From Escherichia coli (lineage in GTDB: Bacteria; Pseudomonadota; Gammaproteobacteria; Enterobacterales; Enterobacteriaceae), in the NCBI RefSeq assembly GCF_016026235.1, contig NZ_CP065613.1: DNA of 64,000 bases; one strand, written 5' to 3'. Below, one piece after another: positions 41,047-52,511 of this stretch. The translations under genes and the position numbers were made by a program. Position 1 is the first letter of the stretch, and every line of letters begins with the position of its first letter. The notes below the pieces were generated by a model that saw nothing but the letters and a program-made list of their open reading frames with translations, had not been told where the DNA came from and did not search any database.

Positions 41047-41624
41047 AAAAAGAACAAATGGTAGTGTCCGCTATTGCCAGTACACCTCACCATAATTTTA
41101 TTAGCAGAGACTTTATCGTTTGAAAAACAACGATAAGCTGCCTTTGTTTCACTCCAGGTACGGCAGGAAACAGGAATACTTTCTTCTGGTGAACGACTGA
41201 GGCTATTGAGGATATGTTTTACTCTTTTATCAAGTCTTGAGTCCCCTATATCCAGTGATTTTAGCTCCTGAATAACCCAGTTTTCCATAACACCTCTGAA
41301 ATAATCTCTGTCTTTTCAATATAATACTATTATTTCAACTTGTGGGTAAGGGTATGAGATGCGAAATGATGATCGATAGTGATGCGAATAAGTGTTCGAT
41401 TCAGATGCGATTATGCAATATGATTTTATGTGTGTTGCTTAATTATCATATTTCTTGCCCGTTCCCCGCCGCGCAGATCCGGTTTCCGGCTGAAGTGGAT
41501 ACAGACCTGATTTGTTTCTGAGTATCGGTAAAAGTGCGGCTTATAAGCTATTCTGAAACATGGCAAGTGAATCTGGGCGGTATAATTCCGGCAAATGTCA
41601 TCTGTATTTAAAGGACGTGTGAGT

Positions 41625-41737
41625 ATGAAATTTCTGGAATGTGCTGTCCGGGATGTGATTTATGGGACCAATGTCCGTATTGTCAAACCGGTCAACATTT
41701 ATGAATGTGAACTCAGGGACAACGTGTTTGTCGGCCC
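41625..41737 (+). pseudogene. N-terminal 38 codons of a hexapeptide-repeat acyl/acetyltransferase, cut by the IS629-like element
   Basis: MKFLECAVRDVIYGTNVRIVKPVNIYECELRDNVFVGP has left-handed beta-helix character. The frame runs into the IS terminal repeat at 41738. Confidence 0.45.
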
Positions 41738-41791
41738 TGAACCGCCCCGGGAATCCTGGAGACTAAACTTCCTGAGAAAGAGGTAAACAGG

Positions 41792-42114
41792 ATGACTAAA
41801 AATACTCGTTTTTCCCCTGAAGTCCGTCAACGGGCAGTCCGTATGGTTCTGGAAAGTCAGGGCGAATATGACTCACAATGGGCGACAATTTGTTCCATTG
41901 CTCCAAAGATTGGCTGTACGCCGGAGACTCTGCGTGTCTGGGTTCGCCAGCATGAGCGGGATACCGGGGGCGGTGATGGAGGGCTCACCACCGCTGAACG
42001 TCAGCGTCTGAAAGAGCTGGAGCGTGAAAATCGTGAAATGCGCCGCAGTAACGATATCCTTCGCCAGGCTTCCGCTTATTTTGCGAAGGCGGAGTTCGAC
42101 CGCCTCTGGAAAAA

Positions 42115-42118
<4 letters not shown>
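41792..42118 (+). CDS. IS629-like OrfA
   Basis: [57 protein letters not shown]... Confidence 0.9.
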
Positions 42119-43001
<883 letters not shown>

Positions 43002-43043
43002 GTTCACAGATAAAACACTCTCCAGGAAACCCGGGGCGGTTCA

Positions 43044-43462
43044 CTCGCACCTCCGCAGTCCTCAAACAAGTCTGGCTGGTAGCTGTAAACAGACTTCGTA
43101 CATACCGCTCTGCAATAAATCCCCGTAGCACAGGCCTCACAGAACTTCTTCCCATGAAAAAACTGCTCACACATCACACAATGCCACTCCAGCACGACCG
43201 GTAATGGTGATAAAAACATCGCCATATCCTCAATGTAAGGGTGGGACTTTTCCGGATTCAGCACCACACAGTCCGCCTTCTGTTGCTCGCTCAGGGCATG
43301 TAAATCGTGCTCAAACCATGCCCCCTGAGCATCTGTCTGCAGAATTAACCGGCCATGACAGGAAAGGCAGAAACAATGCCGGATATTTCTGCTGAGCGCA
43401 GAGTCGGCACTGATAATGTGCTCACCCGGCGTGATCCCCAGCCCCGTTTTTATACCGTTCAT
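43044..43462 (-). CDS. Zn-ribbon protein (paralogue B), C-terminus replaced by the IS629-like end
   Basis: MNGIKTGLGITPGEHIISADSALSRNIRHCFCLSCHGRLILQTDAQGAWFEHDL...EWHCVMCEQFFHGKKFCEACATG... Its start overlaps the upstream stop by 4 nt (ATGA). Confidence 0.6.
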
Positions 43463-43842
43463 TCTGCTACCCCCTCCTCACTGAAGCGCCCGGTCTGGCA
43501 GTGTGTGCAGTACCGCTCCCCATAATAATCGTGGTGACATTGTCTGCAGTGCCAGCTGGCTTTACGCACCACGGGTAAGGCATCCGGGACGAATTGCTGC
43601 AGACGTTTAATCAACCGTATTTCTCTGCGTTCCGGCCTGACATAAGGACATTGCTGCGCGTGCTCCGTCAGCCCGTCGTCAGTGTGTTCAAACCAGAGCC
43701 GTTCGGTGTCGTATTGCGGGTGGTATCTGAGTGCACTGCCGCAAAGGTGGCAGGTGTAGTGGGCATAAGGAGCAGTCTGTGCGGTACGGGCACCGATCAG
43801 ACGTCCGTTGCCATCAAGTGCGAGAAAAGATTTTGCGTACAT
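43459..43842 (-). CDS. Zn-ribbon protein (paralogue A)
   Basis: 127 aa, MYAKSFLALDGNGRLIGARTAQTAPYAHYTCHLCGSALRYHPQYDTERLWFEHTDD...SWHCRQCHHDYYGERYCTHCQTG. It has the same CxxC...WFEH...WHCxxC...CxxCxTG layout as paralogue B. Confidence 0.6.
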   Translation of the reverse strand: MYAKSFLALDGNGRLIGARTAQTAPYAHYTCHLCGSALRYHPQYDTERLWFEHTDDGLTEHAQQCPYVRPERREIRLIKRLQQFVPDALPVVRKASWHCRQCHHDYYGERYCTHCQTGRFSEEGVAE

Positions 43843-44008
43843 AGTATATGTTCCTCTGCGCCAGACGACACGCAGGCAACAGCCGTCCCGGTACTGGCAG
43901 CGTGGTCAGGTGTGAATGGCGGTTTTCAGTTCAGTCTCAGAAGGGAAAATCAGTGTGGTCGCTGTGAACACATCATCACACTAAGGTCAGATAAGTCGTC
44001 TGTCGGGC

Positions 44009-44578
44009 TCAGCCACGACTGCAGCCAAAGTTGCGCTCACCGGTGCCGTAAGCTTTGGTACTCTCCTTCGCCAGATAGTCAGCACGCTCCAGCACCTGCT
44101 GAAAGCCGGTGTCATCATCGCGTTCCAGCCACACCGCCGGCCTGACCGGAAAATGCGCCAGCGTGGTATGATCTCCGGTATCCACTCCCAGGGCACTGCA
44201 CCACGCCTGTTTAATCATCCCGGCCAGTGATCCCGGAGCGCGGTAATCGCCGGCACGACACCAGGTATCCCGGTTGACCAGCAGCATCAGGTGATAGTGT
44301 TTTTTACCTTTGCACTCCCCAAACTCCCGGGCCCAGACGTAATGCAGGGTTGTGGGATGCACGCGTTTACCTTCCCGATGCTTACGTTTCTGGTAAGCGT
44401 CGATTCGGGCTTTCAGGGCATTGATGAAGCGGGATATCACAGCTGCGTCCGTTGCTGCCGGTACATCCGGGAGACGCAGGTCAACCCGCAATGCCGTCAG
44501 GCGGGGATGAACATTCAGTGCGTGCCGCACCGTCTCACGAATACGTTGCTGCCAGAAGGGGTTGTATTTGTAGGTCAT
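44009..44578 (-). CDS. Inovirus Gp2-like / YagK-YfjJ family protein
   Basis: MTYKYNPFWQQRIRETVRHALNVHPRLTALRVDLRLPD...HPTTLHYVWAREFGECKGKKHYHLMLLVNRDTW... GGAG lies 8 nt upstream of ATG 44578. The family assignment is from memory. Confidence 0.7.
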   Translation of the reverse strand: MTYKYNPFWQQRIRETVRHALNVHPRLTALRVDLRLPDVPAATDAAVISRFINALKARIDAYQKRKHREGKRVHPTTLHYVWAREFGECKGKKHYHLMLLVNRDTWCRAGDYRAPGSLAGMIKQAWCSALGVDTGDHTTLAHFPVRPAVWLERDDDTGFQQVLERADYLAKESTKAYGTGERNFGCSRG

Positions 44579-44780
44579 GGTTAAATCTCCGTATGGTTCA
44601 TACGGAATAGCCACGTCGTAAAAAATACGCAGAGTCCCTGAAGTGACCTCCGGCAGGACACTGTCTCAGGCACTCTGTGATAACCCGAACGGTCGTCTCC
44701 GGACTGACGATTGAATTCCCGGCGTTGTTTTTTTTAATGTAAAAAACCGGTTACGGATAAGGCGTGGAGAGGGAGCGATC

Positions 44781-44909
44781 GTGATACGCAAAAAGAAGTG
44801 CAGGGACTGTGGTAACGCAATTACTCATAATACAGTATGTTGCCCGTATTGTGGCGCTGTCGACCCCTTCGGTTATTATCGGAAGACCGATCGTCTGCTC
44901 TGTTTACTG
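44781..44909 (+). pseudogene. Small zinc-ribbon protein, truncated by the IS66-type end at 44910
   Basis: GTG start after GGAGAGGGAG. MIRKKKCRDCGNAITHNTVCCPYCGAVDPFGYYRKTDRLLCLL, then IS sequence. Confidence 0.45.
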
Positions 44910-45271
44910 GTAAGCTTCCGGGGAACTCATATTGACGCGTTTTTCAGGCGCGCGTCATCGGCGGCGCATACGAACGCTCGTGGTTTGATAACGGTTGATT
45001 TATTTTGTTGCACAGAGGCGATCGCCAGGCAGGTACCGGAGGCGGGCTCTGAAGTACTGAGTAGCGTGATCGCGTCAGGCCGCGAAGTACTGACTCGGGG
45101 ATTAATTGCAGGTGATGATGTACTGACCCGGGAATGACTCCGGGCTGATTCAGGTTCTTATTCGCTGTCAGCCCGCGTGGTTGCTGGTCTGGCTCATTTC
45201 CTGCCGTCAGGAGTTCAACTCCCGACTGCAGGTTATGGCCCGGTGCACGAACACCTGACGGCAGGTATCAC

Positions 45272-46871
45272 TCACCCGGAGAAGGTAAATCCCTCAAGAG
45301 GCAGCAACTCTGCCAGTCGCTCCTCCGGCCACTCCGGCAGACGCATCAGGACGTCTGTCAACCAGGCATGCGGCTCCAGACCGTTGCGTTTCGCGGTTTC
45401 CAGCAAGCTCATTATTTGCGCGGCGCGTTCTCCCGCCATCTGCGAACCGGCGAACAGCCACGATTTTCTGCCCAGAACCACGTTTTTGATGGCCCGTTCA
45501 CACACATTATTATCCAGCGGCACCGCACCATCTTCCAGGAAGCGGCTCAGTTCCACGCGATGAGACAGCGCATAGGCAATGGCTTTGTGTAATGCCTTTC
45601 CCGGAGAACATTGCGGTTCCTGCTCTTCAAGCCATGACCACAGTTCTTCCAGTATCGGACGGGCATAACGCTGTCGCCACTGGCGGATTTTTTCCACGGG
45701 GCGGCTACTGATCTTCTTCTCAAGACGGTACAACCCGCGATTTTCTTCACAGCTATGGCAGCCCGTGGATCTTTACTGATTTTATACAGGTCGGCGAAGC
45801 CCCTGCGGGCATGGGCCCAGCATCCGGCCAGCGTGATCTCCGGCACTTTGTTTGCCAGAGTCCGGTAAGCTTTATGTCCGTCAACAACCAGCGTCCCGCC
45901 CAGCCCTGAAGCCAGTTTTCAGGATACTCATGGCTACGTCCGGTCCGGCAGTCGAAGCACACAACTGACGGTCCCGTCCTTTCTCCACTGACGTATGCCC
46001 ACAGATAACCGGAGCAGGATTTACCGCCTTTCTTCGTGTTCAGGATCTTCAGGGTAGTCTCATCTGCATGCACCACCGGACGGTTTATCAACTCGCGATG
46101 GAGTAACGCCGCCAGGGGAGATAATGCGGCACCCGCCGCGCCAACCATGTCAGCCATCGAACTGACGGGCAGCCCGACATCTGAACGGGCAAAGACCTGT
46201 TGCTGGCGATACAGAGGCAGGTGGTCACCGTATTTATTGATGCTCACCTGTGCGATGACTGATGGCTCAACGGCACTTTTCGGGAGGATATGTGCCGGCA
46301 TTTTACCGCTGAACACCTTCTGGCAACAGGGACAACTGTATTGCGGACGGACATAACGGTTCACCACAAAGTGAGCGGGAATATACTCCAGCTTTTCACT
46401 CACCGCATCGCGGATATAGTGCAGCGGCTCGTCACATTCAGGGCAATGGTCAGTGTCCGGCTGGATAATTTTTTCCACCCGTGGAAGATGAACCGGTAAG
46501 GGTTTGCGTATCGGGCGTGAACGGGACGCTTTTTCATCTTCTTCAGGGGATTGCGGGAGCAGTTTATCCAGATGTGCGGTAAGCGCGGCGATATCGGCAT
46601 CAACATCCTCTTCGAACAGGGAGCGTTGCATACCAGCCAGCGTTTCACATTTTTTTCCGAAGCGCTGTTGACGAACCAGTTTCAGCATTTCTTCCAGAAG
46701 CTGGATGCGCCGGCTTTTCTCCAGTAATTCCCGCTCTTTTTCGGCATTCTCCGACATGACTTCTTGTACCATGGCAAGTGCCATAGCACGCAGTTTTTCG
46801 ATGTCATTCGTGGTGTTGAGAGCGGAGATATCCATACAGGGGAGTATACCACTCCAGATACGGATATTCAT
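45272..46871 (-). pseudogene. IS66-family TnpC with two frameshifts
   Basis: ORFs 45753..46871, 45547..45846 and 45272..45733 join as ...ENWLQGWAG/TLVVDGHKAYRTLANKVPEITLAGCWAHARRGF...VKKIAG/LYRLEKKISS... Both shifts fall at GGG runs (plus-strand CCC at 45895..45897 and 45734..45736). Confidence 0.85.
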
Positions 46872-46877
46872 TATTTT

Positions 46878-47270
46878 TCACTGAGTTAGCAGTGTATTTT
46901 GCGTGTTTTCAGGGCGCAGTTCAGGTTCATTCTGCCAGACCCATTTCGTCAGGTCATGTCCCTTAACCTGCTGCCAGTCAACACCGGCAATCAGCCAGTT
47001 AAACTCGTCGGGAGTGAGGTGCCAGGCAGCGTCATTTGCACGTGGCCAGCGGAAGCTGCCTTTGTGCAGACGGCGGGTACACAACCACACCCCGTGTTTA
47101 TCCCACCGGAGAACTTTGATACGCGAACGGGCTTTGTTAACAAAGACGAAGGCGGCTCCCTCATGCCATGTCGACCGGAGTTCATCCTGTATATACTGCG
47201 TCAGTGAGTCGATGCCCCGGCGCATGTCAACAGGTTTAATTGCGATGAAGACATTATCAGGACTGAGCAT
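46878..47270 (-). CDS. IS66-family TnpB
   Basis: MLSPDNVFIAIKPVDMRRGIDSLTQYIQDELRSTWHEGAAFVFVNKARSRIKVLRWDKHGVWL... The ATG overlaps the end of tnpA. Confidence 0.85.
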   Translation of the reverse strand: MLSPDNVFIAIKPVDMRRGIDSLTQYIQDELRSTWHEGAAFVFVNKARSRIKVLRWDKHGVWLCTRRLHKGSFRWPRANDAAWHLTPDEFNWLIAGVDWQQVKGHDLTKWVWQNEPELRPENTQNTLLTQ

Positions 47271-47586
47271 ATTTGAGTGCCCTGAAGACATCGGTAAGTT
47301 GTGACGGCTGACAGCACATCCGTACTCCACCGGGAAGGAAGAGCGTGACTGGCTCATTCGTGACGGGCTGTGGTACATCAGCATGCAGTGGTGGCGCAAT
47401 ATGAACGGGAAGAACGGTCGGTTCATTTGCCCGGCGTTCAGCTTTTGCGACATCCTGCGGCCATTCGCGAAGTGATGTGAAGGGAATATCGTTGAGTTCA
47501 CAGTATTGCTGACGTGTAAGACCACTGGCGCGCCAGGCAGCAACGTGCTGCCTTTTCTGTTCAATGGTCCATCGGGGTTTTGACAT
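47257..47586 (-). CDS. IS66-family TnpA
   Basis: 109 aa, MSKPRWTIEQKRQHVAAWRASGLTRQQYCELNDIPFTSLREWPQ... Confidence 0.85.
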   Translation of the reverse strand: MSKPRWTIEQKRQHVAAWRASGLTRQQYCELNDIPFTSLREWPQDVAKAERRANEPTVLPVHIAPPLHADVPQPVTNEPVTLFLPGGVRMCCQPSQLTDVFRALKYAQS

Positions 47587-47626
47587 CGATTATCTCCGGT
47601 AAGTTGGTGAATGGATGTCGGTAATA

Positions 47627-48066
47627 CTAACTGACCGAAGATCCCTGTGAAGATGACTTCCCCGTAACGACACGTTTACTGACGTTACTGCTGGTGCTGA
47701 TTCTGGTTACCGTTTCAGGCGTCAGTGTATTTGTACTGTTGCAGTAGGTTACAGGGGAGGGATTATCAGGAATCGGCGGGGCAGAGCGACCCGCTGCGTT
47801 TGTTGTGCCAGACAGTAACGCACCGGCTCCCTGCAAAATGGTACCTGAATCAATCACAGTCAGGTATTCCGCCAATCCGTGATCGAATCGAGCGGAATAC
47901 TCAGCCCCGACAAATACGAGTCCCCTTCAGAAGATACAGGCCGGTAATGCCTGAACGCCTGCCCCTCTGTACACCATTCCCTTTTGATTTCGAATTCTTT
48001 GTTGCCGTTATGTTCCCGATCTTCCGGTGCACAGATAACACCGGAGTCATCGTAGCGCGGATTCAA
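47627..48066 (-). pseudogene. Hypothetical gene, probably split by a frameshift (ORFs 47860..48066 and 47627..47875)
   Basis: Two consecutive overlapping minus-strand ORFs lie in different frames directly downstream of the hha-like gene. No family was recognised. Confidence 0.25.
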
Positions 48067-48069
48067 GAT

Positions 48070-48268
48070 TCAGGTGACATATTTCCAGACGGAAGCCGGC
48101 ACGCGATCGTAAAGTTTGTTCATTGTCAGTTCTGCCAGCCGGTGATCGACCGCAGAGTTAAAAGCTTCCAGCTCCGCAGGGGTAAGTTTATAACGTGTGT
48201 GGGAAATCACTTTTTCCAGCGTCTCCCGGGATGAACAACGACGGAACTGCTCTGGTTTTAACTTCCAT
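48070..48268 (-). pseudogene. Hha/YmoA-family H-NS co-modulator homologue with a 1-nt frameshift after codon 4
   Basis: The minus-strand frame reads ...[61 protein letters not shown](stop), cf. Hha ...[50 protein letters not shown]. The ATG at 48268 is out of frame by one base, in a T4/A4 run at 48256..48259. Confidence 0.7.
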
Positions 48269-49166
48269 TCGTCTCTCGTTACTTTATGCTGTAATCAACG
48301 TGATACTGCCAGCATACCGCACCAGACTGACATTCTGGTACCCTCCCCAAACTCATTACTCCCGTGCCACCACTTAACCGGTCTCTCAGCAATATCGCCT
48401 TAACGCTACGTTTAGTTATCCGACACCGGATGTCCGATGCCATTGCGACAACCTGAAGGTAACCAGCCAGTTAGCTGAGATGTTAAGCTGCTGGCTGCAT
48501 ACACCTTGCCAAATCTAATCGCTGTTATCTTAACCAATTTCCAGGATACAAGGGGGCGATTACTGAGAATACTCTCAGACTGTCACTCACCAGATCGGAT
48601 ACGTTTACCGCTCAGGCGGATGCTTAATGCACTCTGTTCAGGTGCATTGCAGGTACGTTTTATGTACGCAGGTTATACGCCAGTTATCAGGGATAACCCT
48701 GTGAGTACAACGCAATCTGTTGCTACTGGGTAGACTGGTCTGCTGATCACACTCACAGATTTATTTCACATATATGAACTCATGTGTTTGAGCTCTCTTA
48801 TATATTTATAATACCAATCAGACAGTCTTATCCCACCAGTGATACCTGTCGCCTGCCCACAGGTCACAGGCTGATGCACCACAACCGCCTTCAAAAACAA
48901 CTCTGCAATTATCAGAACGCCAGTTTTCCCCTTATCTCACGAAAGTCCTCCCTCCTTTATCACGTGCGCGTGCGGAAGCATCGTTTCGCAACAATCACCC
49001 GACATACCGGTACGGCTCAGCCACCGCAATCCCCCCGTTTATCTCCTGACGGTCACATTCCCGATTATTTTTTACGTTTTTCCCCGGTTGTTATGCCGGG
49101 GAAGGTGGTGCGTTGTTTTCATCACCAACGCCGGTTGAGATTAACAACATCCGGAGGAACATTTTC

Positions 49167-49373
49167 ATGAATACCCCAGTTTCACTGATGGATGACCAGA
49201 TGGTCGACATGTCGTTTATCACTCAACTGACCGGCCTGACCGATAAATGGTTTTACAAGCTCATCAAGGATGGTGCCTTTCCTGCCCCCATCAAACTGGG
49301 CCGTAGCTCCCGATGGCTGAAAAGTGAAGTGGAAGCCTGGTTGCAGGCACGTATTACACAGTCCCGTCCGTAA
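49167..49373 (+). CDS. alpA: AlpA-family (MerR-like HTH) prophage/island regulator
   Basis: MNTPVSLMDDQMVDMSFITQLTGLTDKWFYKLIKDGAFPAPIKLGRSSRWLKSEVEAWLQARI. GGAGG lies 8 nt upstream. Confidence 0.85.
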   Translation: MNTPVSLMDDQMVDMSFITQLTGLTDKWFYKLIKDGAFPAPIKLGRSSRWLKSEVEAWLQARITQSRP

Positions 49374-49458
49374 TTCCTGACCGTTATCCGTTCAACCGCA
49401 GCAAGGGCATGATCCGGCCCCCGGAGGCATTTTGCTGCGCGCTAAAGGAGAGAATATT

Positions 49459-50031
49459 ATGCAAAAACTTGAAAACCGGTGTGAGCTGCTGCTCATCCAG
49501 CATCAGAAATGGATGACAAGCGTGACGAGGCTTATCGTCGCTCATGGAATGGGGTCTCCGCATCTTCATGGTTATCACCGCCTGACCCTGGCCCACTTTT
49601 TTCTGCCAGAAAAAGGCACCATCATCTCAGTGGCACCACAGGGACTCTATCAGGTCGTCAACCCGGGAACACCACCGTTCATTCCTGCCATTCAGGAAGG
49701 GTTAATGACCAGCATTCAGACCCATGAAATCATGCTGCTTACACATTTTAATCTGGGCGGCGTTTTACTCAGTGAGCTACATCGTCTGGGTGAAAACCGG
49801 CTGGCAAACAGGCTGAACAGCCTGCTCCGGCGTTTCGACGATCGTGATCTCTACCACACGCTGATATGGCTGTGCTGGTATGATCTGATGTGTGCCCACT
49901 CCATGCAGCCCTGGACTGAAGAGTTAAAGCATAAATCACATGCAGAGCTTGAAAACTGGGCTGTGGCGCGCAAACGGGAAAAGAGCGAGCTGGAACTGAT
50001 GATTGACGAGTACCTGTTATACGCCTGTTGA
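49459..50031 (+). CDS. Hypothetical 190-aa protein downstream of alpA (no family recognised)
   Basis: AAAGGAGAG RBS, then MQKLENRCELLLIQHQKWMTSVTRLIVAHGMGSPHLHGYHRL... Convergent with the DUF3987 gene. Confidence 0.55.
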   Translation: MQKLENRCELLLIQHQKWMTSVTRLIVAHGMGSPHLHGYHRLTLAHFFLPEKGTIISVAPQGLYQVVNPGTPPFIPAIQEGLMTSIQTHEIMLLTHFNLGGVLLSELHRLGENRLANRLNSLLRRFDDRDLYHTLIWLCWYDLMCAHSMQPWTEELKHKSHAELENWAVARKREKSELELMIDEYLLYAC

Positions 50032-50152
50032 TTCATAACACTCCCGGGCCTCCGCACACTTACTTTTCCTCCGTCACCCTCATGCAGAAGCGGGGGGTGA
50101 CGGGCATACTGCGATACCACCACTGAATAATCCGTCTCAGCAACAGGGAACA

Positions 50153-51643
50153 TTATAAGCCAAAGGATTGCTCATGCCATCTTATCAGTTTCTGGCTGTA
50201 GCACGCATTCAGTTCAGGCAGCGTGATATTGTTTATTTCGGAAAGCAGGACATAGGTGGTTTTTCCTTCCTGCACGACAGAGAGCCTGAGTTGAGATGCA
50301 AGAATGTTCAGCAGGACGTTCAGCTTTTTCCTGTTCCTGAACCGGCCCGGGCCACACTGGAGAATATAATTTTTCCTGACACGGGGCGGGCATTCTCCGC
50401 GGCACTCCTCAATGAGCCAGTCGAGCAGCTCCCAGGCGTCCTGCAGCTGCAGTTCAGATTCATCAGGTAACGCAAATAATTTTTTATATTCATCTGTGTA
50501 CCACGAACTTATTACGACAGCAGACGTCATGATATCGGCAGAGATTTTCCCTTCACCCTGACTGAAATACTGCAATAACGCAGCAATTCTCGCAATGTTT
50601 TCTGTTTTTTTTGAAACATGCCCCCGAAACTGGCTTAAGGGTCCGGAAGGAGACAAATCCTGCTCCAGAACATTATAGTGATCAATAAATATTTTTTGCG
50701 CTTCAGGAGAAAAATGCAGACAATAACGTTCATCCTTACTGGATTTTTCAATACTGCCTCTGGCCAGTTCCATTAATCGTTCATGAAATGCCGTTAATGA
50801 TCCTCCCGGGGTCACAGCTCCGTTAATAAAGCGTTTCCCCTGCGTGGTGGCAGGTTTACTGATTAGACAACGGGCAAGAAAACCACTGTCCCTGGCAACA
50901 GAACCTTTTCGCTCCATATATCGGTCAAAAAGACCGGGTTGTACCATGAGGGATAATGTCATTCTGGCATTTTCAATCATCTGTTCGGGTTCATTCTTTC
51001 TGTCCACCGACAATACGGAGCCATCCCACATTTTGTTAATAAAAGGCAGCTCAGACAGGGTATACCCATCAAATATTATACCGGCTTCATCAGACATGAT
51101 ACCCACTGAACGCCACTGACCACAAAGCTGATCTTTAATTGCTGCTGTCGTGGCATCATTAAAAATGAATTTATATCTTACAGGTTTTTCCCCTCTGTTT
51201 TTCTGAAGCGCTTCCAGTTGTCTGAGCGTTTCTGATTCATCCGCGCCTTTGCGGAGTTCTTTATTCAGTTTTGACAACAATGCTTTTTTCTGCGCCTTTA
51301 AAAGCTCTTCCTTATTTTTCCATGTCGTCAGTTCATTTTTGTGTCTGGAATATAACAGCATCTCCTGCTGGTACAGGGGCTCCATTAATAATTTGTCCAC
51401 TGCGGTTTTTCGTTCTCCGGACTCAGCAAGCGTCAGTAAGAAAAGAGAAACCGGCCCCCGTAGTGTATTCAGTCTGCAGACATCAATCAGATTCTGGCAG
51501 ACAAGTGAAACAGCGCCCAGGGCAGATGCTGCCACAAGCCCCAGGGGAGCCTGCGTGATTTGCTGAGCTTCAATAACGGCATCACGAATGAGTGGAGGCA
51601 GCGAACTCAGGGGAAACTCATCAGGATACTGAAAGTATGGCAT
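50153..51643 (-). CDS. DUF3987 / YfjI-like protein
   Basis: MPYFQYPDEFPLSSLPPLIRDAVIEAQQITQAPLGLVAASALGAVSLVCQNLIDV...LTLAESGERKTA... GAGG RBS. The family call is from memory of YfjI. Confidence 0.7.
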   Translation of the reverse strand: MPYFQYPDEFPLSSLPPLIRDAVIEAQQITQAPLGLVAASALGAVSLVCQNLIDVCRLNTLRGPVSLFLLTLAESGERKTAVDKLLMEPLYQQEMLLYSRHKNELTTWKNKEELLKAQKKALLSKLNKELRKGADESETLRQLEALQKNRGEKPVRYKFIFNDATTAAIKDQLCGQWRSVGIMSDEAGIIFDGYTLSELPFINKMWDGSVLSVDRKNEPEQMIENARMTLSLMVQPGLFDRYMERKGSVARDSGFLARCLISKPATTQGKRFINGAVTPGGSLTAFHERLMELARGSIEKSSKDERYCLHFSPEAQKIFIDHYNVLEQDLSPSGPLSQFRGHVSKKTENIARIAALLQYFSQGEGKISADIMTSAVVISSWYTDEYKKLFALPDESELQLQDAWELLDWLIEECRGECPPRVRKNYILQCGPGRFRNRKKLNVLLNILASQLRLSVVQEGKTTYVLLSEINNITLPELNACYSQKLIRWHEQSFGL

Positions 51644-52511
51644 AATGACCTCACAACACACAGAACATAAAGTACCGCAACTATTGCTACTAATAGCAAA
51701 AATAGCAGCAGAATCAATACAGGATAAAAATTTCTGTCGATTTTCAGATTAAATAATAACCATTCGGTATTTTGTCGCTAAAGAATGTTAGAATGAATCT
51801 GTGCGTCTACGGGCGCTCTCCGGAGCACACATGTTGATTAATTTTCACACAACAACGTGCCAGCAAAAAGCATCATCCAGGGTATTGCAGGTACGGGTTT
51901 CCTGCCGGGAATAAACATAAACAGTTTCCCCGGAGTAACGCTTTCAGAAAACTGCCCTCCTGAAGAAGAATAAAATAAAGAAGATGACAGTTCCTGCGCT
52001 GAATGCTGAGTACTCAGTACAATATTCTATGGACAGGATGACATTTTTATAAATAACAAAAACCATTTAATACTGACATATCAGGAAAATCCCCCTCCCT
52101 GCCGGCACAGATAAAATGCACCATTTTTTCTTCAAATACTTCTGTATAATCGCAGCCAGCCAATGATGAGAATGGATAAAAACAACACTTCCTCGACAAA
52201 CACAAAAACCAGCCTTCATTTTCACATCATCATCCAGTTTTAATTAAACCCTGACGAGCGACAGTATTTCAGTTCAGGAATTAAAAGCCAGCTATTACTC
52301 AGTAAAAACACCACCAACTAATAATATCTCAGCAGATATTTCCTGACCAGGATGACACATTTATTAAAGATTTTTAACAGGACACTTCACATTACTGAAC
52401 GCTATTCCGACAGTATCACTACACAAATAAAAAAGGGAACTGGATAAATATTCATGCCGGAAGAATGGTGTAACAAAAGCATTTAATCATTACGTGCGTA
52501 TTCCTCTCTAT

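What the first reader, a model, noticed from the sequence alone, without database searches (positions are those of the whole stretch)
43044..44578. Uncharacterised minus-strand trio: inovirus Gp2-like gene followed by two translationally coupled paralogous Zn-ribbon proteins
The two downstream ORFs (127 aa and at least 139 aa) overlap by ATGA. They share an identical cysteine/histidine scaffold: [YF]xCxxCxxxL...WFEH...C...LPVV..(S)WHCxxC...GxxxCxxCxTG. The N-terminal CxxC...xFxH element is reminiscent of the CoiA-like / nuclease-associated zinc finger. The upstream gene is a YagK/YfjJ (Gp2-like) protein, a family that is ubiquitous in E. coli islands and has no known role. A tandem duplicated DNA-binding or nuclease-like pair next to a replication-initiator-like protein could be a replication/partition module, an anti-MGE module or a regulatory module of the second element.
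Basis: inference. Interest (0 to 1): 0.55.

Follow-up and report, generated by a model that had tools for sequence, protein, structure and literature searches.

The report
Island Rep-like gene with zinc-protein pair
Three real but uncharacterised genes, a replication-initiator-like nickase and two related small zinc-binding proteins, form an insertion-sequence-clipped piece of a conserved core operon found in a very common family of E. coli and enterobacterial genomic islands. The sequences are already catalogued, and their function is still unknown.

Summary
On the minus strand lie a YagK/YfjJ ("inovirus Gp2") gene (44009-44578), ZnA (43459-43842, 127 aa) and ZnB (43462-43043, natively 141 aa). 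ZnA and ZnB overlap by ATGA. An IS3-family insertion at 43042/43043 replaces only ZnB's last codon and stop.

ZnA and ZnB are 30% identical paralogues. Both match Pfam DUF7828 plus Zn_ribbon_11 (formerly DUF3279). RefSeq calls them "putative zinc ribbon protein". They are catalogued and very common: the trio is in at least 1,231 of 5,426 complete E. coli genomes, and ZnA/ZnB-like DNA is in about 3,848. I found no paper or solved structure.

New findings here:
- The N-terminal half is homologous to the zinc finger of competence nuclease CoiA (hhalign probability 93.7%), but there is no nuclease domain.
- In all 20 distinct contexts examined, ZnA sits directly downstream of an HUH-motif Rep-like gene, often with alpA between them.
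- The fuller array is Rep-like - AlpA - ZnA - ZnB - catalytically dead Rep-like paralogue, on island backbones next to variable cargo.
- Both zinc genes are under purifying selection (dN/dS 0.1-0.3).
- A roughly 45-nt leader upstream of ZnA is conserved across genera.

The most likely role, by inference, is non-catalytic partners of the HUH nickase in island DNA processing. Interest is moderate.

The parts
44009..44578 (-). YagK/YfjJ ('inovirus Gp2 family') HUH-type Rep-like gene, 189 aa (an upstream in-frame GTG at 44614 would give 201 aa)
   Evidence: PF11726 matches with E = 2.7e-48. PF23343 REP_ORF2-G2P is sub-threshold at E = 3.7e-5. phrog_25019 matches with E = 1.8e-41. H94-x-H96, E85 and Y168-x-x-K171 are invariant among the YagK1/Rep190 relatives aligned. 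pI is 9.7. The exact sequence occurs on 115 public contigs.
43843..43925 (-). Conserved non-coding leader between the Rep-like gene and ZnA; core GGGACGGCTGTTGCCTGCGTGT at 43868-43889
   Evidence: It aligns across 20 loci from many genera whatever gene lies upstream. The core motif is found once per locus, always just 5' of ZnA, in 22 loci, and once in the window against 0.01 expected. Mean pairwise identity is 0.70 at -60 to -21. No RNA structure is supported and there is no Rfam match.
43459..43842 (-). ZnA, 127 aa: CoiA_N-like CCHC zinc finger (DUF7828) plus C4 zinc ribbon (Zn_ribbon_11)
   Evidence: Pfam matches. The AF2 model has pLDDT 88.1 and pTM 0.79. hhalign to the CoiA N-terminus gives 93.7% probability. 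dN/dS is 0.09-0.34. The exact sequence occurs on 123 public contigs.
43043..43462 (-). ZnB, divergent paralogue of ZnA. It overlaps ZnA by ATGA. The native protein is 141 aa; here the last codon and stop are replaced by IS3 sequence, so the ORF reads on to 43004 (152 aa).
   Evidence: Pfam matches. The AF2 model has pLDDT 74.7. dN/dS is 0.15-0.28 among orthologues.
41738..43042 (+). IS3-family element abutting ZnB. It replaces the ancestral downstream segment (the dead Rep-like paralogue YagK2 and an acyltransferase gene).
   Evidence: Homology to the intact loci L001/L002 stops at 43043 and resumes at 41737. An ALIL frameshift pseudoknot (RF01497) lies at 42073-42189.
44910..47673 (.). IS66-family element inserted upstream of the Rep-like gene, with an 8-bp target duplication GTTTACTG (44902-44909 and 47674-47681). 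It separates the trio from hha, alpA and the rest of the backbone.
   Evidence: BLAST breakpoints against L001/L002. Junction sequences.
49167..49373 (+). AlpA-family regulator of the same island backbone. In many other lineages alpA lies directly between the Rep-like gene and ZnA.
   Evidence: Found by jackhmmer seeded with the L020 protein whose precomputed Pfam hit is PF05930 Phage_AlpA. RefSeq names the matching gene in L001/L002 only 'helix-turn-helix transcriptional regulator'. The canonical order is seen in L009, L010, L017, L026 and L037.

Best explanation
**Shown.**
- The trio is an IS-bracketed fragment of a conserved backbone operon of enterobacterial tRNA-associated genomic islands. 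The K-12 islands CP4-57 and CP4-44 appear, from my own knowledge of their gene order, to be examples of this type.
  - The backbone carries alpA, a YfjI/DUF3987 gene, a YeeP/YfjP-type GTPase gene, Ag43, RadC and CbtA/CbeA.
- The operon order is: HUH-motif Rep-like protein (YagK/YfjJ or a divergent 190-aa subtype) - (AlpA in many lineages) - conserved leader - ZnA - ZnB - a second Rep-like paralogue that has lost the HUH histidines and the catalytic tyrosine. Variable cargo follows.
- ZnA and ZnB are ancient paralogues, translationally coupled in most lineages, and under purifying selection.
- Each consists of a CoiA_N-like CCHC zinc finger and a C4 zinc ribbon. Neither has a catalytic domain.

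**Inferred.**
- ZnA and ZnB act as non-catalytic subunits, probably in fixed proportion and possibly as a hetero-oligomer.
- They would recognise nucleic acid, or partner with the adjacent HUH nickase, and possibly with its dead paralogue.
- Together these would nick and process island DNA for replication or single-strand mobilisation after AlpA-controlled excision.
- This would be a 'split' version of the zinc finger plus nuclease arrangement that CoiA has in one polypeptide.
For: **Identity and homology.** Pfam matches; CoiA_N homology.

**Gene neighbourhood.**
- In 20 distinct contexts with upstream sequence, a YagK1-type or Rep190-type ORF ends no more than about 400 nt upstream of ZnA, or has only alpA in between.
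  - Genera named by the records: Escherichia, Shigella, Salmonella, Mixta, Tatumella, Serratia, Superficieibacter, Yokenella, Pectobacterium, and a Klebsiella plasmid.
  - For the assembly and metagenome loci, the genus is known only from source names of the query proteins: Klebsiella, Enterobacter, Salmonella, E. coli.
- The full array Gp2 - AlpA - ZnA - ZnB - 'inovirus-type Gp2' - DUF2913 is annotated on Klebsiella plasmid pRWS292.s3. It is also seen in L009 and L010.
- ZnA/ZnB start-stop overlaps are conserved: ATGA in E. coli, 13 nt in L004, L006, L009, L010, L031 and L037.

**Catalytic signatures.**
- H-x-H, E and Y-x-x-K are invariant in the upstream Rep-like copies.
- They are lost in the downstream copies.

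**Selection.** dN/dS is 0.09-0.34 for ZnA and 0.15-0.28 for ZnB.

**Backbone rather than cargo.**
- The module is flanked on one side by conserved GTPase and AlpA genes.
- On the other side the cargo varies: type I R-M, KwaA, BREX, SNF2 with AAA and S8 peptidase, ars, Flp pilus, RND efflux, and aerobactin here.
- There is no PADLOC hit.

**Literature.**
- A Gp2-like protein and AlpA were reported as likely core functions of a class of Pseudomonas genomic islands (bioRxiv 10.1101/2024.08.29.610337).
- CoiA is a PD-(D/E)XK nuclease with a small N-terminal zinc finger, needed for D-loop resolution (bioRxiv 10.1101/2024.02.06.579203).
Against: - No biochemical or genetic data exist for any component: there were no papers for DUF3279/DUF7828 and none on YagK/YfjJ function.
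- HUH activity of YagK/YfjJ is inferred only from motifs and a sub-threshold Rep match (24.4 bits against a cutoff of 27.8). The Rep-like alignment has no PDB sequence relatives.
- ZnA and ZnB are near neutral (pI 5.2-8.0), which is not typical of general DNA binders.
- The ZnA-ZnB and Zn-Rep interactions are untested, because no multimer modelling was available.
- No hairpin or nick-site-like structure is supported in the conserved leader.
- Several lineages keep ZnA alone, without ZnB or the dead Rep (L007, L020, L027, L035). The four-part complex is therefore not obligatory.
- From my own knowledge of its gene order, K-12's CP4-57 has alpA-yfjI-yfjJ without zinc-ribbon genes, which would make them accessory.
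Confidence: 0.4

Rival explanations
1. ZnA/ZnB are small zinc-finger regulators, transcriptional or translational. They would control the island operon or its cargo together with AlpA, for example by binding the conserved leader upstream of ZnA (autoregulation) or by contacting RNA polymerase. This would be analogous to the Ogr/Delta zinc-finger activators of phages P2 and P4.
For: - In many lineages ZnA lies immediately downstream of alpA.
- A sequence-conserved, non-structured 45-nt leader adjoins the ZnA ribosome-binding site in every locus. That fits a protein-binding operator.
- The proteins are small, zinc-dependent, and encoded as a duplicated pair. P4 Delta is likewise a duplicated Ogr-like protein (my own knowledge).
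Against: - The window proteins have no match to Ogr_Delta or any transcription-factor family at E <= 1.
- The strict linkage is to a Rep-like gene, not to AlpA: in the window type, alpA is 5 kb away and inverted.
- This rival does not explain the paired active and dead Rep-like genes flanking the zinc pair.
Confidence: 0.25
2. The Rep-like gene and zinc pair form a defence, counter-defence or inter-element competition module. One example would be an HUH nickase, targeted by the zinc proteins, that attacks incoming ssDNA phages or plasmids, or hijacks a helper element.
For: - The module sits at the edge of the variable region, which in relatives is filled with defence systems: BREX, Kiwa KwaA, type I R-M, SNF2/AAA/protease.
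- The CoiA-type finger belongs to a protein that acts on incoming ssDNA recombination intermediates.
- The B copy evolves fast (tree).
Against: - There are no PADLOC hits.
- The genes are on the conserved side of the backbone/cargo boundary, with a fixed order across genera while the cargo changes.
- dN/dS shows ordinary purifying selection, not diversifying selection.
- There are no homologues in 50,697 phage records.
Confidence: 0.12
3. The genes are decaying relics of a cryptic element with no current function.
For: - The window copy is bracketed by two IS elements, has lost the downstream paralogue and has an altered ZnB C-terminus.
- Several relatives are frameshifted or truncated: L004 ZnB, L011, L013, L014, L016, L039.
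Against: - dN/dS of 0.1-0.3 holds over synonymous divergences up to about 1.4.
- Cys/His ligands are invariant.
- Gene order, overlaps and the leader are conserved across many genera.
- The genes are intact in at least 1,231 complete E. coli genomes.
Confidence: 0.06
4. ZnA/ZnB are themselves nucleases of the CoiA type.
For: The N-terminal region is homologous to CoiA_N.
Against: - Homology covers only 48 columns of the zinc finger.
- None of 41 members hits the CoiA nuclease domain PF06054 among the 25 most-matched families of 38.
- The proteins end about 70 residues after the finger, in a zinc ribbon.
- Fold searches find no nuclease fold.
Confidence: 0.03

Closest known systems
Pfam DUF7828 (PF25165) + Zn_ribbon_11 (PF11682, formerly DUF3279); RefSeq 'putative zinc ribbon protein'
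   Same: - Both window proteins match both models above the gathering scores.
- Identical sequences are already deposited under these names.
- The family is small: 275 representatives at 50% identity among 1.84 billion proteins.
- Nearly all hits that carry a source name are from Enterobacterales. One named hit is a Veillonella MAG and one genome locus is titled a Bacillota MAG.
   Different: Nothing differs at the family level. The family itself has no assigned function, no solved structure and no literature.
Competence protein CoiA (CoiA_N zinc finger + PD-(D/E)XK nuclease PF06054 + CoiA_C), a D-loop resolution nuclease of natural transformation
   Same: - The N-terminal beta-hairpin, CxxC, and [HW]F[AE]H...C zinc finger are homologous (hhalign probability 93.7%, E = 1.9e-7).
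- The DUF7828 model also hits genuine CoiA proteins.
   Different: - There is no nuclease domain and no CoiA C-terminal region.
- The finger is followed instead by a helix and a C4 zinc ribbon.
- The genes lie in Gram-negative genomic islands next to an HUH protein, not in competence regulons.
YagK/YfjJ (PF11726, 'inovirus Gp2 family') and HUH rolling-circle Rep / G2P proteins
   Same: - The upstream gene is a clear PF11726 member (E = 2.7e-48).
- It has a weak PF23343 REP_ORF2-G2P match and HUH plus YxxK motifs.
- Gp2-like proteins next to AlpA are reported as likely core genes of Pseudomonas genomic islands.
   Different: - Nicking or replication-initiator activity has never been shown for this family in the literature I could search.
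- It is short (189 aa), with no helicase or other domain.
- Here it comes with a catalytically dead paralogue and the zinc pair.
Relaxase or Rep accessory proteins of mobilisable elements, and zinc-finger-bearing HUH enzymes (IS91/Helitron-type transposases); comparison from my own knowledge
   Same: The concept is shared: an HUH nickase helped by small DNA-recognition modules, either as separate accessory proteins or as a fused zinc finger.
   Different: - No sequence or fold relationship was detected.
- No oriT or ori has been identified.
- The comparison is functional analogy only.
Ogr/Delta zinc-finger late-gene activators of phages P2 and P4 (my own knowledge)
   Same: They are small CxxC...CxxC zinc proteins encoded by P4-like or AlpA(Vis)-type elements. 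Delta is an internal duplication, which parallels the ZnA/ZnB pair.
   Different: - There is no Pfam match to Ogr_Delta at E <= 1.
- The architecture differs, with two distinct zinc modules per protein.
- The pair is linked to a Rep-like gene rather than to late operons.

Membership tests
Pfam DUF7828 (PF25165) | Match to the family HMM above the gathering score (25.7 bits) | tested here: met
   ZnA scores 102.1 bits and ZnB 78.3 bits. All 41 aligned relatives match.
Pfam Zn_ribbon_11 (PF11682, ex-DUF3279) | Match above the gathering score (24 bits) and a CxxC...CxxC ribbon | tested here: met
   ZnA scores 36.0 bits and ZnB 53.8 bits. C99 and C102 are invariant; C112 and C115 are at least 90% conserved.
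CoiA competence nuclease | N-terminal CoiA_N zinc finger | tested here: met
   hhalign probability 93.7%, E = 1.9e-7 over 48 columns. Direct hmmscan to PF25164 is only sub-threshold, in 4 of 41 members with best E = 0.039.
CoiA competence nuclease | PD-(D/E)XK nuclease domain (PF06054) with catalytic D/E | tested here: not met
   Neither window protein hits PF06054 at E <= 1, and it is not among the 25 most-matched families of 38 for the 41 relatives. The proteins are 127-141 aa and are fully accounted for by the finger, one helix and the ribbon.
YagK/YfjJ (PF11726) | Match above the gathering score (25.8 bits) | tested here: met
   164.6 bits, E = 2.7e-48, covering residues 33-199.
HUH endonuclease / rolling-circle Rep superfamily | HUH metal-binding motif and catalytic Tyr (YxxK) | tested here: met
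   H94-Y-H96, E85 and Y168-L-A-K171 are invariant across nine YagK1/Rep190 sequences. This is sequence evidence only.
HUH endonuclease / rolling-circle Rep superfamily | Significant match to a curated Rep family or a Rep fold | tested here: inconclusive
   PF23343 scores 24.4 bits against a cutoff of 27.8. Rep190 relatives score 23.6-27.1 bits, with a weak Rep_1 hit. There is no PDB sequence hit.
HUH endonuclease / rolling-circle Rep superfamily | Site-specific nicking with a covalent 5'-phosphotyrosine intermediate at an origin | not testable with these tools
   This needs biochemistry. No origin-like hairpin was found.
Known anti-phage defence systems (PADLOC-DB 2.0) | Match to any defence-system protein model | tested here: not met
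   None of the three proteins has a hit at E <= 1.
Ogr/Delta zinc-finger activators | Match to the Pfam Ogr_Delta model | tested here: not met
   It is not among the Pfam hits of ZnA or ZnB at E <= 1.
Known RNA families (Rfam 15) for the conserved leader | Match at the gathering threshold, or a covariation-supported structure | tested here: not met
   Only the ALIL element of the IS3 was found in 41500-50200. RNAalifold gives -3.27 kcal/mol with one compensatory pair. The MFE z-score is +1.25.

The most novel reading that the evidence does not exclude
The active Rep-like HUH protein, ZnA, ZnB and the dead Rep-like paralogue could form a previously unrecognised multi-subunit DNA-processing machine. 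In it, CoiA-type zinc-finger subunits would act in trans to direct an HUH nickase to a specific site. That would initiate rolling-circle replication or single-strand mobilisation of the very common AlpA/YfjP-type 'cryptic prophage' islands, which have no conjugation or capsid genes and no known route of transfer. This would give those islands a mechanism of maintenance or spread, and would give the YagK/YfjJ and DUF3279 families a function.
Probability: 0.15. Interest if true: 0.7.

Novelty: new variant of a known kind. Interest (0 to 1): 0.4.

Why it matters
The zinc-protein genes occur in about 70% of complete E. coli genomes, often in several copies. They also occur in other enterobacterial genera, mainly in chromosomal islands and occasionally on plasmids. 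Those islands carry virulence, defence and resistance cargo: aerobactin and Ag43 here; BREX, Kiwa, R-M, arsenic resistance and RND efflux elsewhere.

To my knowledge, how these islands replicate, are maintained or move is not known.

The strict linkage of ZnA to an HUH-motif Rep-like gene, the paired active and dead Rep copies, and a conserved leader together define a small set of parts that can be tested. Testing them could explain island biology and assign a function to two 'y-ome'-type families, YagK/YfjJ and DUF3279/DUF7828.

If instead they prove to be ordinary regulators, the result is a modest annotation gain.

Tried and rejected
**Fold searches of the confident ZnA model gave nothing significant.**
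- Foldseek against PDB: best E = 0.68, only generic rubredoxin or MCM zinc knuckles.
- Foldseek against viral BFVD: best E = 0.02, uncharacterised proteins.
- The AlphaFold-database library was unavailable.

**Sequence searches.**
- Profile search of PDB sequences found only weak eL43/L37Ae ribbon hits for the zinc family and nothing relevant for the Rep-like alignment.
- NCBIfam, PADLOC and PHROGs gave no hit for the zinc proteins.
- tblastn against 50,697 phage records found no match.

**Literature.** Nothing for DUF3279, DUF7828, PF11682 or PF25165. No functional work on YagK/YfjJ. The yoeG/yoeH lead in K-12 led nowhere: these are other pseudogenes, and the CP4-44 stretch examined has no annotated zinc-ribbon gene.

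**Structured RNA or hairpin origin in the conserved leader: rejected for RNA, unresolved for DNA.**
- RNAalifold gives -3.27 kcal/mol.
- The MFE is no better than shuffles (z = +1.25).
- There is no Rfam hit.
- Repeat search found only short, chance-level repeats.

**Promoter and terminator scan.** Counts were at chance level. The only promoter-like site lies upstream of the Rep-like gene.

**Idea that ZnB is Escherichia-specific: rejected.**
- It came from the word-indexed search.
- Position-2 paralogues exist in Salmonella, Mixta, Superficieibacter, Yokenella, a Klebsiella plasmid, Serratia, and a locus attributed to Enterobacter. They fall outside the tight ZnA clade.

**Heterodimer modelling.** Not possible with the tools available.
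Full report

Yes. The six-frame ORF list and the sequence show three consecutive minus-strand genes.
- The Gp2-like ORF is 44009-44614 from a GTG. The ATG at 44578, preceded by GGAG, gives the 189-aa protein that RefSeq annotates in other genomes.
- ZnA is 43459-43842 (127 aa).
- ZnB starts at 43462.
- The ZnA stop and the ZnB start share ATGA, preceded by a strong GAGGAGGGGG.

ZnB is almost complete.
- Megablast against complete E. coli genomes and a direct comparison with two intact loci put an IS3-family junction at 43042/43043.
- The window protein is identical to the intact 141-aa protein through residue 140. It then reads into 12 IS-derived codons.

ZnA and ZnB are 30% identical (E = 1e-13).

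**2. What are the proteins?**

The Rep-like protein:
- It is a clear member of Pfam YagK_YfjJ_C (E = 2.7e-48).
- It has a sub-threshold match to REP_ORF2-G2P.

ZnA and ZnB:
- Both match DUF7828 plus Zn_ribbon_11 (ex-DUF3279) above the curated cut-offs.
- RefSeq calls them "putative zinc ribbon protein".
- The exact window sequences are already in public collections.
- They have no NCBIfam, PADLOC or informative PHROG match.
- I found no literature.

Family size and spread:
- An exhaustive profile search of 1.84 billion representative proteins found only 275 relatives, all small stand-alone proteins.
- Nearly all hits that carry a source name are from Enterobacterales. One named hit is a Veillonella MAG and one genome locus is titled a Bacillota MAG.

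Conserved residues in the 41-sequence alignment:
- C31, C34, H53, C99 and C102 are invariant.
- WFE(50-52), C65, W97, C112 and C115 are nearly so.
- This implies a CCHC site and a C4 site.

Structure:
- AlphaFold2 gives a confident compact model for ZnA (pLDDT 88, pTM 0.79) and a weaker one for ZnB (pLDDT 74.7).

**3. The CoiA resemblance**

- A few family members weakly hit CoiA_N.
- Many genuine streptococcal CoiA proteins carry precomputed DUF7828 hits.
- A profile-profile comparison aligns ZnA 6-55 with CoiA 2-49 at 93.7% probability, E = 1.9e-7.

CoiA is a PD-(D/E)XK nuclease needed for D-loop resolution in transformation, with a small N-terminal zinc finger (bioRxiv 10.1101/2024.02.06.579203). 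ZnA and ZnB lack the nuclease domain entirely, so they are not CoiA family members and are not nuclease-like.

**4. Context in the window**

The trio is a fragment.
- Compared with intact loci in a tRNA-Phe island (L001) and an aerobactin island (L002), the IS3-family element (41738-43042) has replaced the downstream genes. These include a second YagK/YfjJ-type gene.
- An IS66-family element (44910-47673, 8-bp duplication GTTTACTG) separates the trio from a truncated hha, alpA (49167-49373), a conserved 199-aa unknown protein and YfjI/DUF3987 (50153-51661).

**5. Context elsewhere**

I examined 14 genome loci, about 20 assembly or metagenome loci and two plasmid loci. I searched them with iterated profiles built locally and with Pfam.

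- **Rep-like gene upstream of ZnA.** In all 20 distinct contexts with upstream sequence, a Rep-like gene lies directly upstream, either the YagK1 type or a divergent 190-aa type.
  - The 190-aa type is sub-threshold to both REP_ORF2-G2P and YagK_YfjJ_C.
  - In several lineages only alpA is interposed.
- **Catalytic signature of the upstream copies.** They keep an invariant HxH, a Glu and YxxK.
- **Fuller array.** The order is Rep-like - AlpA - ZnA - ZnB - second Rep-like - DUF2913 or the 199-aa unknown.
  - It is annotated as such on a Klebsiella IncFIB/HI1B plasmid.
  - It is present in Superficieibacter, Yokenella, Salmonella, Mixta and E. coli.
- **Second Rep-like copy.** It has lost both histidines and the tyrosine.
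- **ZnA/ZnB overlap.** The genes overlap in most lineages, by 4 or 13 nt.
- **Flanks.** On one side is the conserved GTPase backbone. On the other is variable cargo: type I R-M, KwaA, BREX, SNF2/AAA/protease, ars, Flp pili, RND efflux.
- **Absence from phages.** No homologue exists in the phage collection.
- **Prevalence.** Homologous DNA is present in about 3,848 of 5,426 complete E. coli genomes, with a median of two places per genome. The full trio is in at least 1,231.

**6. Are the genes functional?**

- Pairwise Nei-Gojobori estimates give dN/dS of 0.09-0.34 for ZnA and 0.15-0.28 for ZnB, over synonymous divergence up to about 1.4. Both are maintained by selection.
- A neighbour-joining tree places all first-position copies in one tight clade and the second-position copies outside it in several long branches.
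- The duplication is therefore old, and the B copy evolves faster.

**7. A conserved leader**

- The roughly 45 nt immediately 5' of the ZnA ribosome-binding site are conserved in 20 aligned loci, whatever gene is upstream.
  - The window core is GGGACGGCTGTTGCCTGCGTGT at 43868-43889.
  - Conservation is about as strong as in the coding sequence.
- A degenerate form of the core motif occurs exactly once per locus in 22 loci.
- It is not a supported RNA structure and not a known Rfam family.
- It is most simply a protein-recognition site: an operator, a translational control site or a nickase target. I could not tell which.

**8. Most likely mechanism**

Shown:
- the domain content;
- the strict Rep-like/ZnA linkage;
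- the overlapping genes;
- the active and dead Rep pair;
- the backbone position;
- purifying selection.

Inferred:
- ZnA and ZnB are non-catalytic zinc modules that work with the HUH nickase, and perhaps with its dead paralogue, on island DNA.
- This would act downstream of AlpA-controlled excision, for replication or single-strand mobilisation.

Main weaknesses:
- There is no biochemistry for any component.
- The zinc proteins have near-neutral pI.
- No recognisable origin was found.
- Some lineages carry ZnA alone.

Rivals:
- The regulator rival (AlpA-linked zinc-finger regulators binding the leader) is a serious alternative.
- A defence or competition role is possible but less favoured, given the backbone position and the lack of any defence-model hit.
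- Relic status is contradicted by selection.
- A CoiA-like nuclease role is excluded by domain content.

**9. Novelty and verdict**

The sequences and domain families are already catalogued and very common, so the trio itself is not a discovery.

I could not find the following described anywhere:
- the homology of DUF7828 to the CoiA zinc finger;
- the invariant coupling of ZnA to HUH-motif Rep-like genes;
- the active and dead Rep pair flanking the zinc pair;
- the conserved leader.

I rate it a new variant of a known kind, namely HUH/AlpA-type island core modules with accessory proteins. Interest is moderate at 0.4. The mechanism remains inferential, and a specialist would not be greatly surprised to find conserved unknown genes in E. 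coli islands. The module's ubiquity and small size do make it a tractable way into how these islands are maintained or moved.

Noticed in passing
window 43843-43925 (-), core 43868-43889: A conserved roughly 45-nt non-coding leader lies immediately upstream of the ZnA ribosome-binding site. It is present once per locus in 22 related loci from many genera. No RNA structure is supported and there is no Rfam match. It could be an operator, a translational control site or a nickase target.
   Followed up: partly
L001 13957-14748 (-); L004 8790-9386; L009 8836-9471; L010 8746-9450; L031 6810-7391; L037 7900-8466: The gene after ZnB is a second YagK/YfjJ-type paralogue that has lost the HUH histidines and the YxxK tyrosine, so it is a likely pseudo-enzyme. 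In this window it has been deleted together with an acyltransferase gene by the IS3-family element.
   Followed up: partly
L020 5288-5860; L026 5003-5578; L035 5252-5821; L017 4494-5213 and others: A divergent 190-240-aa Rep-like subfamily sits directly upstream of ZnA in many lineages. It is sub-threshold to both PF23343 and PF11726 but keeps HxH and YxxK. It mostly has no precomputed Pfam hit in the assembly and metagenome gene tables.
   Followed up: partly
L017 6001-6717 (also L018, L019): A 238-aa position-2 zinc protein holds two DUF7828 fingers in tandem followed by one ribbon. It is an internal duplication of the CoiA_N-like module.
   Followed up: no
window 44781-44978 (+): A small 65-aa CxxC...CxxC ORF (RefSeq 'hypothetical protein' in intact loci) is transcribed divergently from the Rep-like gene. 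The IS66-family insertion at 44909/44910 cuts it, so here it reads on as a 118-aa chimera.
   Followed up: no
window 44910-47673: An IS66-family element has an 8-bp target duplication, GTTTACTG. Its main transposase reading frame is split into 372-aa and 153-aa ORFs, so the element is probably defective.
   Followed up: partly
window 41738-43042: An IS3-family element carries an ALIL frameshift pseudoknot (Rfam RF01497, 42073-42189). Its second reading frame is broken into two overlapping ORFs (42115-42471 and 42333-43001).
   Followed up: no
window 48070-48210 (-): Only the C-terminal 46 codons of an hha (haemolysin expression modulator) homologue remain, as in locus L002. The gene is intact in L001.
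   Followed up: no
window 49432-50031 (+); L020 4498-5091; L004 9422-10084; L031 7454-8089: A conserved 197-220-aa protein with no Pfam match follows alpA, or the dead Rep-like gene, in nearly every related locus. It is another uncharacterised backbone gene.
   Followed up: no
L017, L020, L027, L028, L035, L037 downstream of the zinc genes: The region just downstream of the module holds variable cargo: type I restriction, KwaA (Kiwa), BREX components, an SNF2 helicase with AAA and S8 peptidase, arsenic resistance and RND efflux. The module marks the boundary between backbone and cargo.
   Followed up: partly
L039 8831-9363 (E. coli B derivative NEBExpress): A laboratory B strain keeps an intact ZnA homologue and an IS2-truncated ZnB, between cobU and tmaR where K-12 carries CP4-44. 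The corresponding K-12 stretch (L040) shows no annotated zinc-ribbon gene.
   Followed up: partly
(protein collection): ZnA and ZnB, only 30% identical, are listed in the same '90% identity' cluster of the protein collection. This is presumably a clustering artefact.
   Followed up: no
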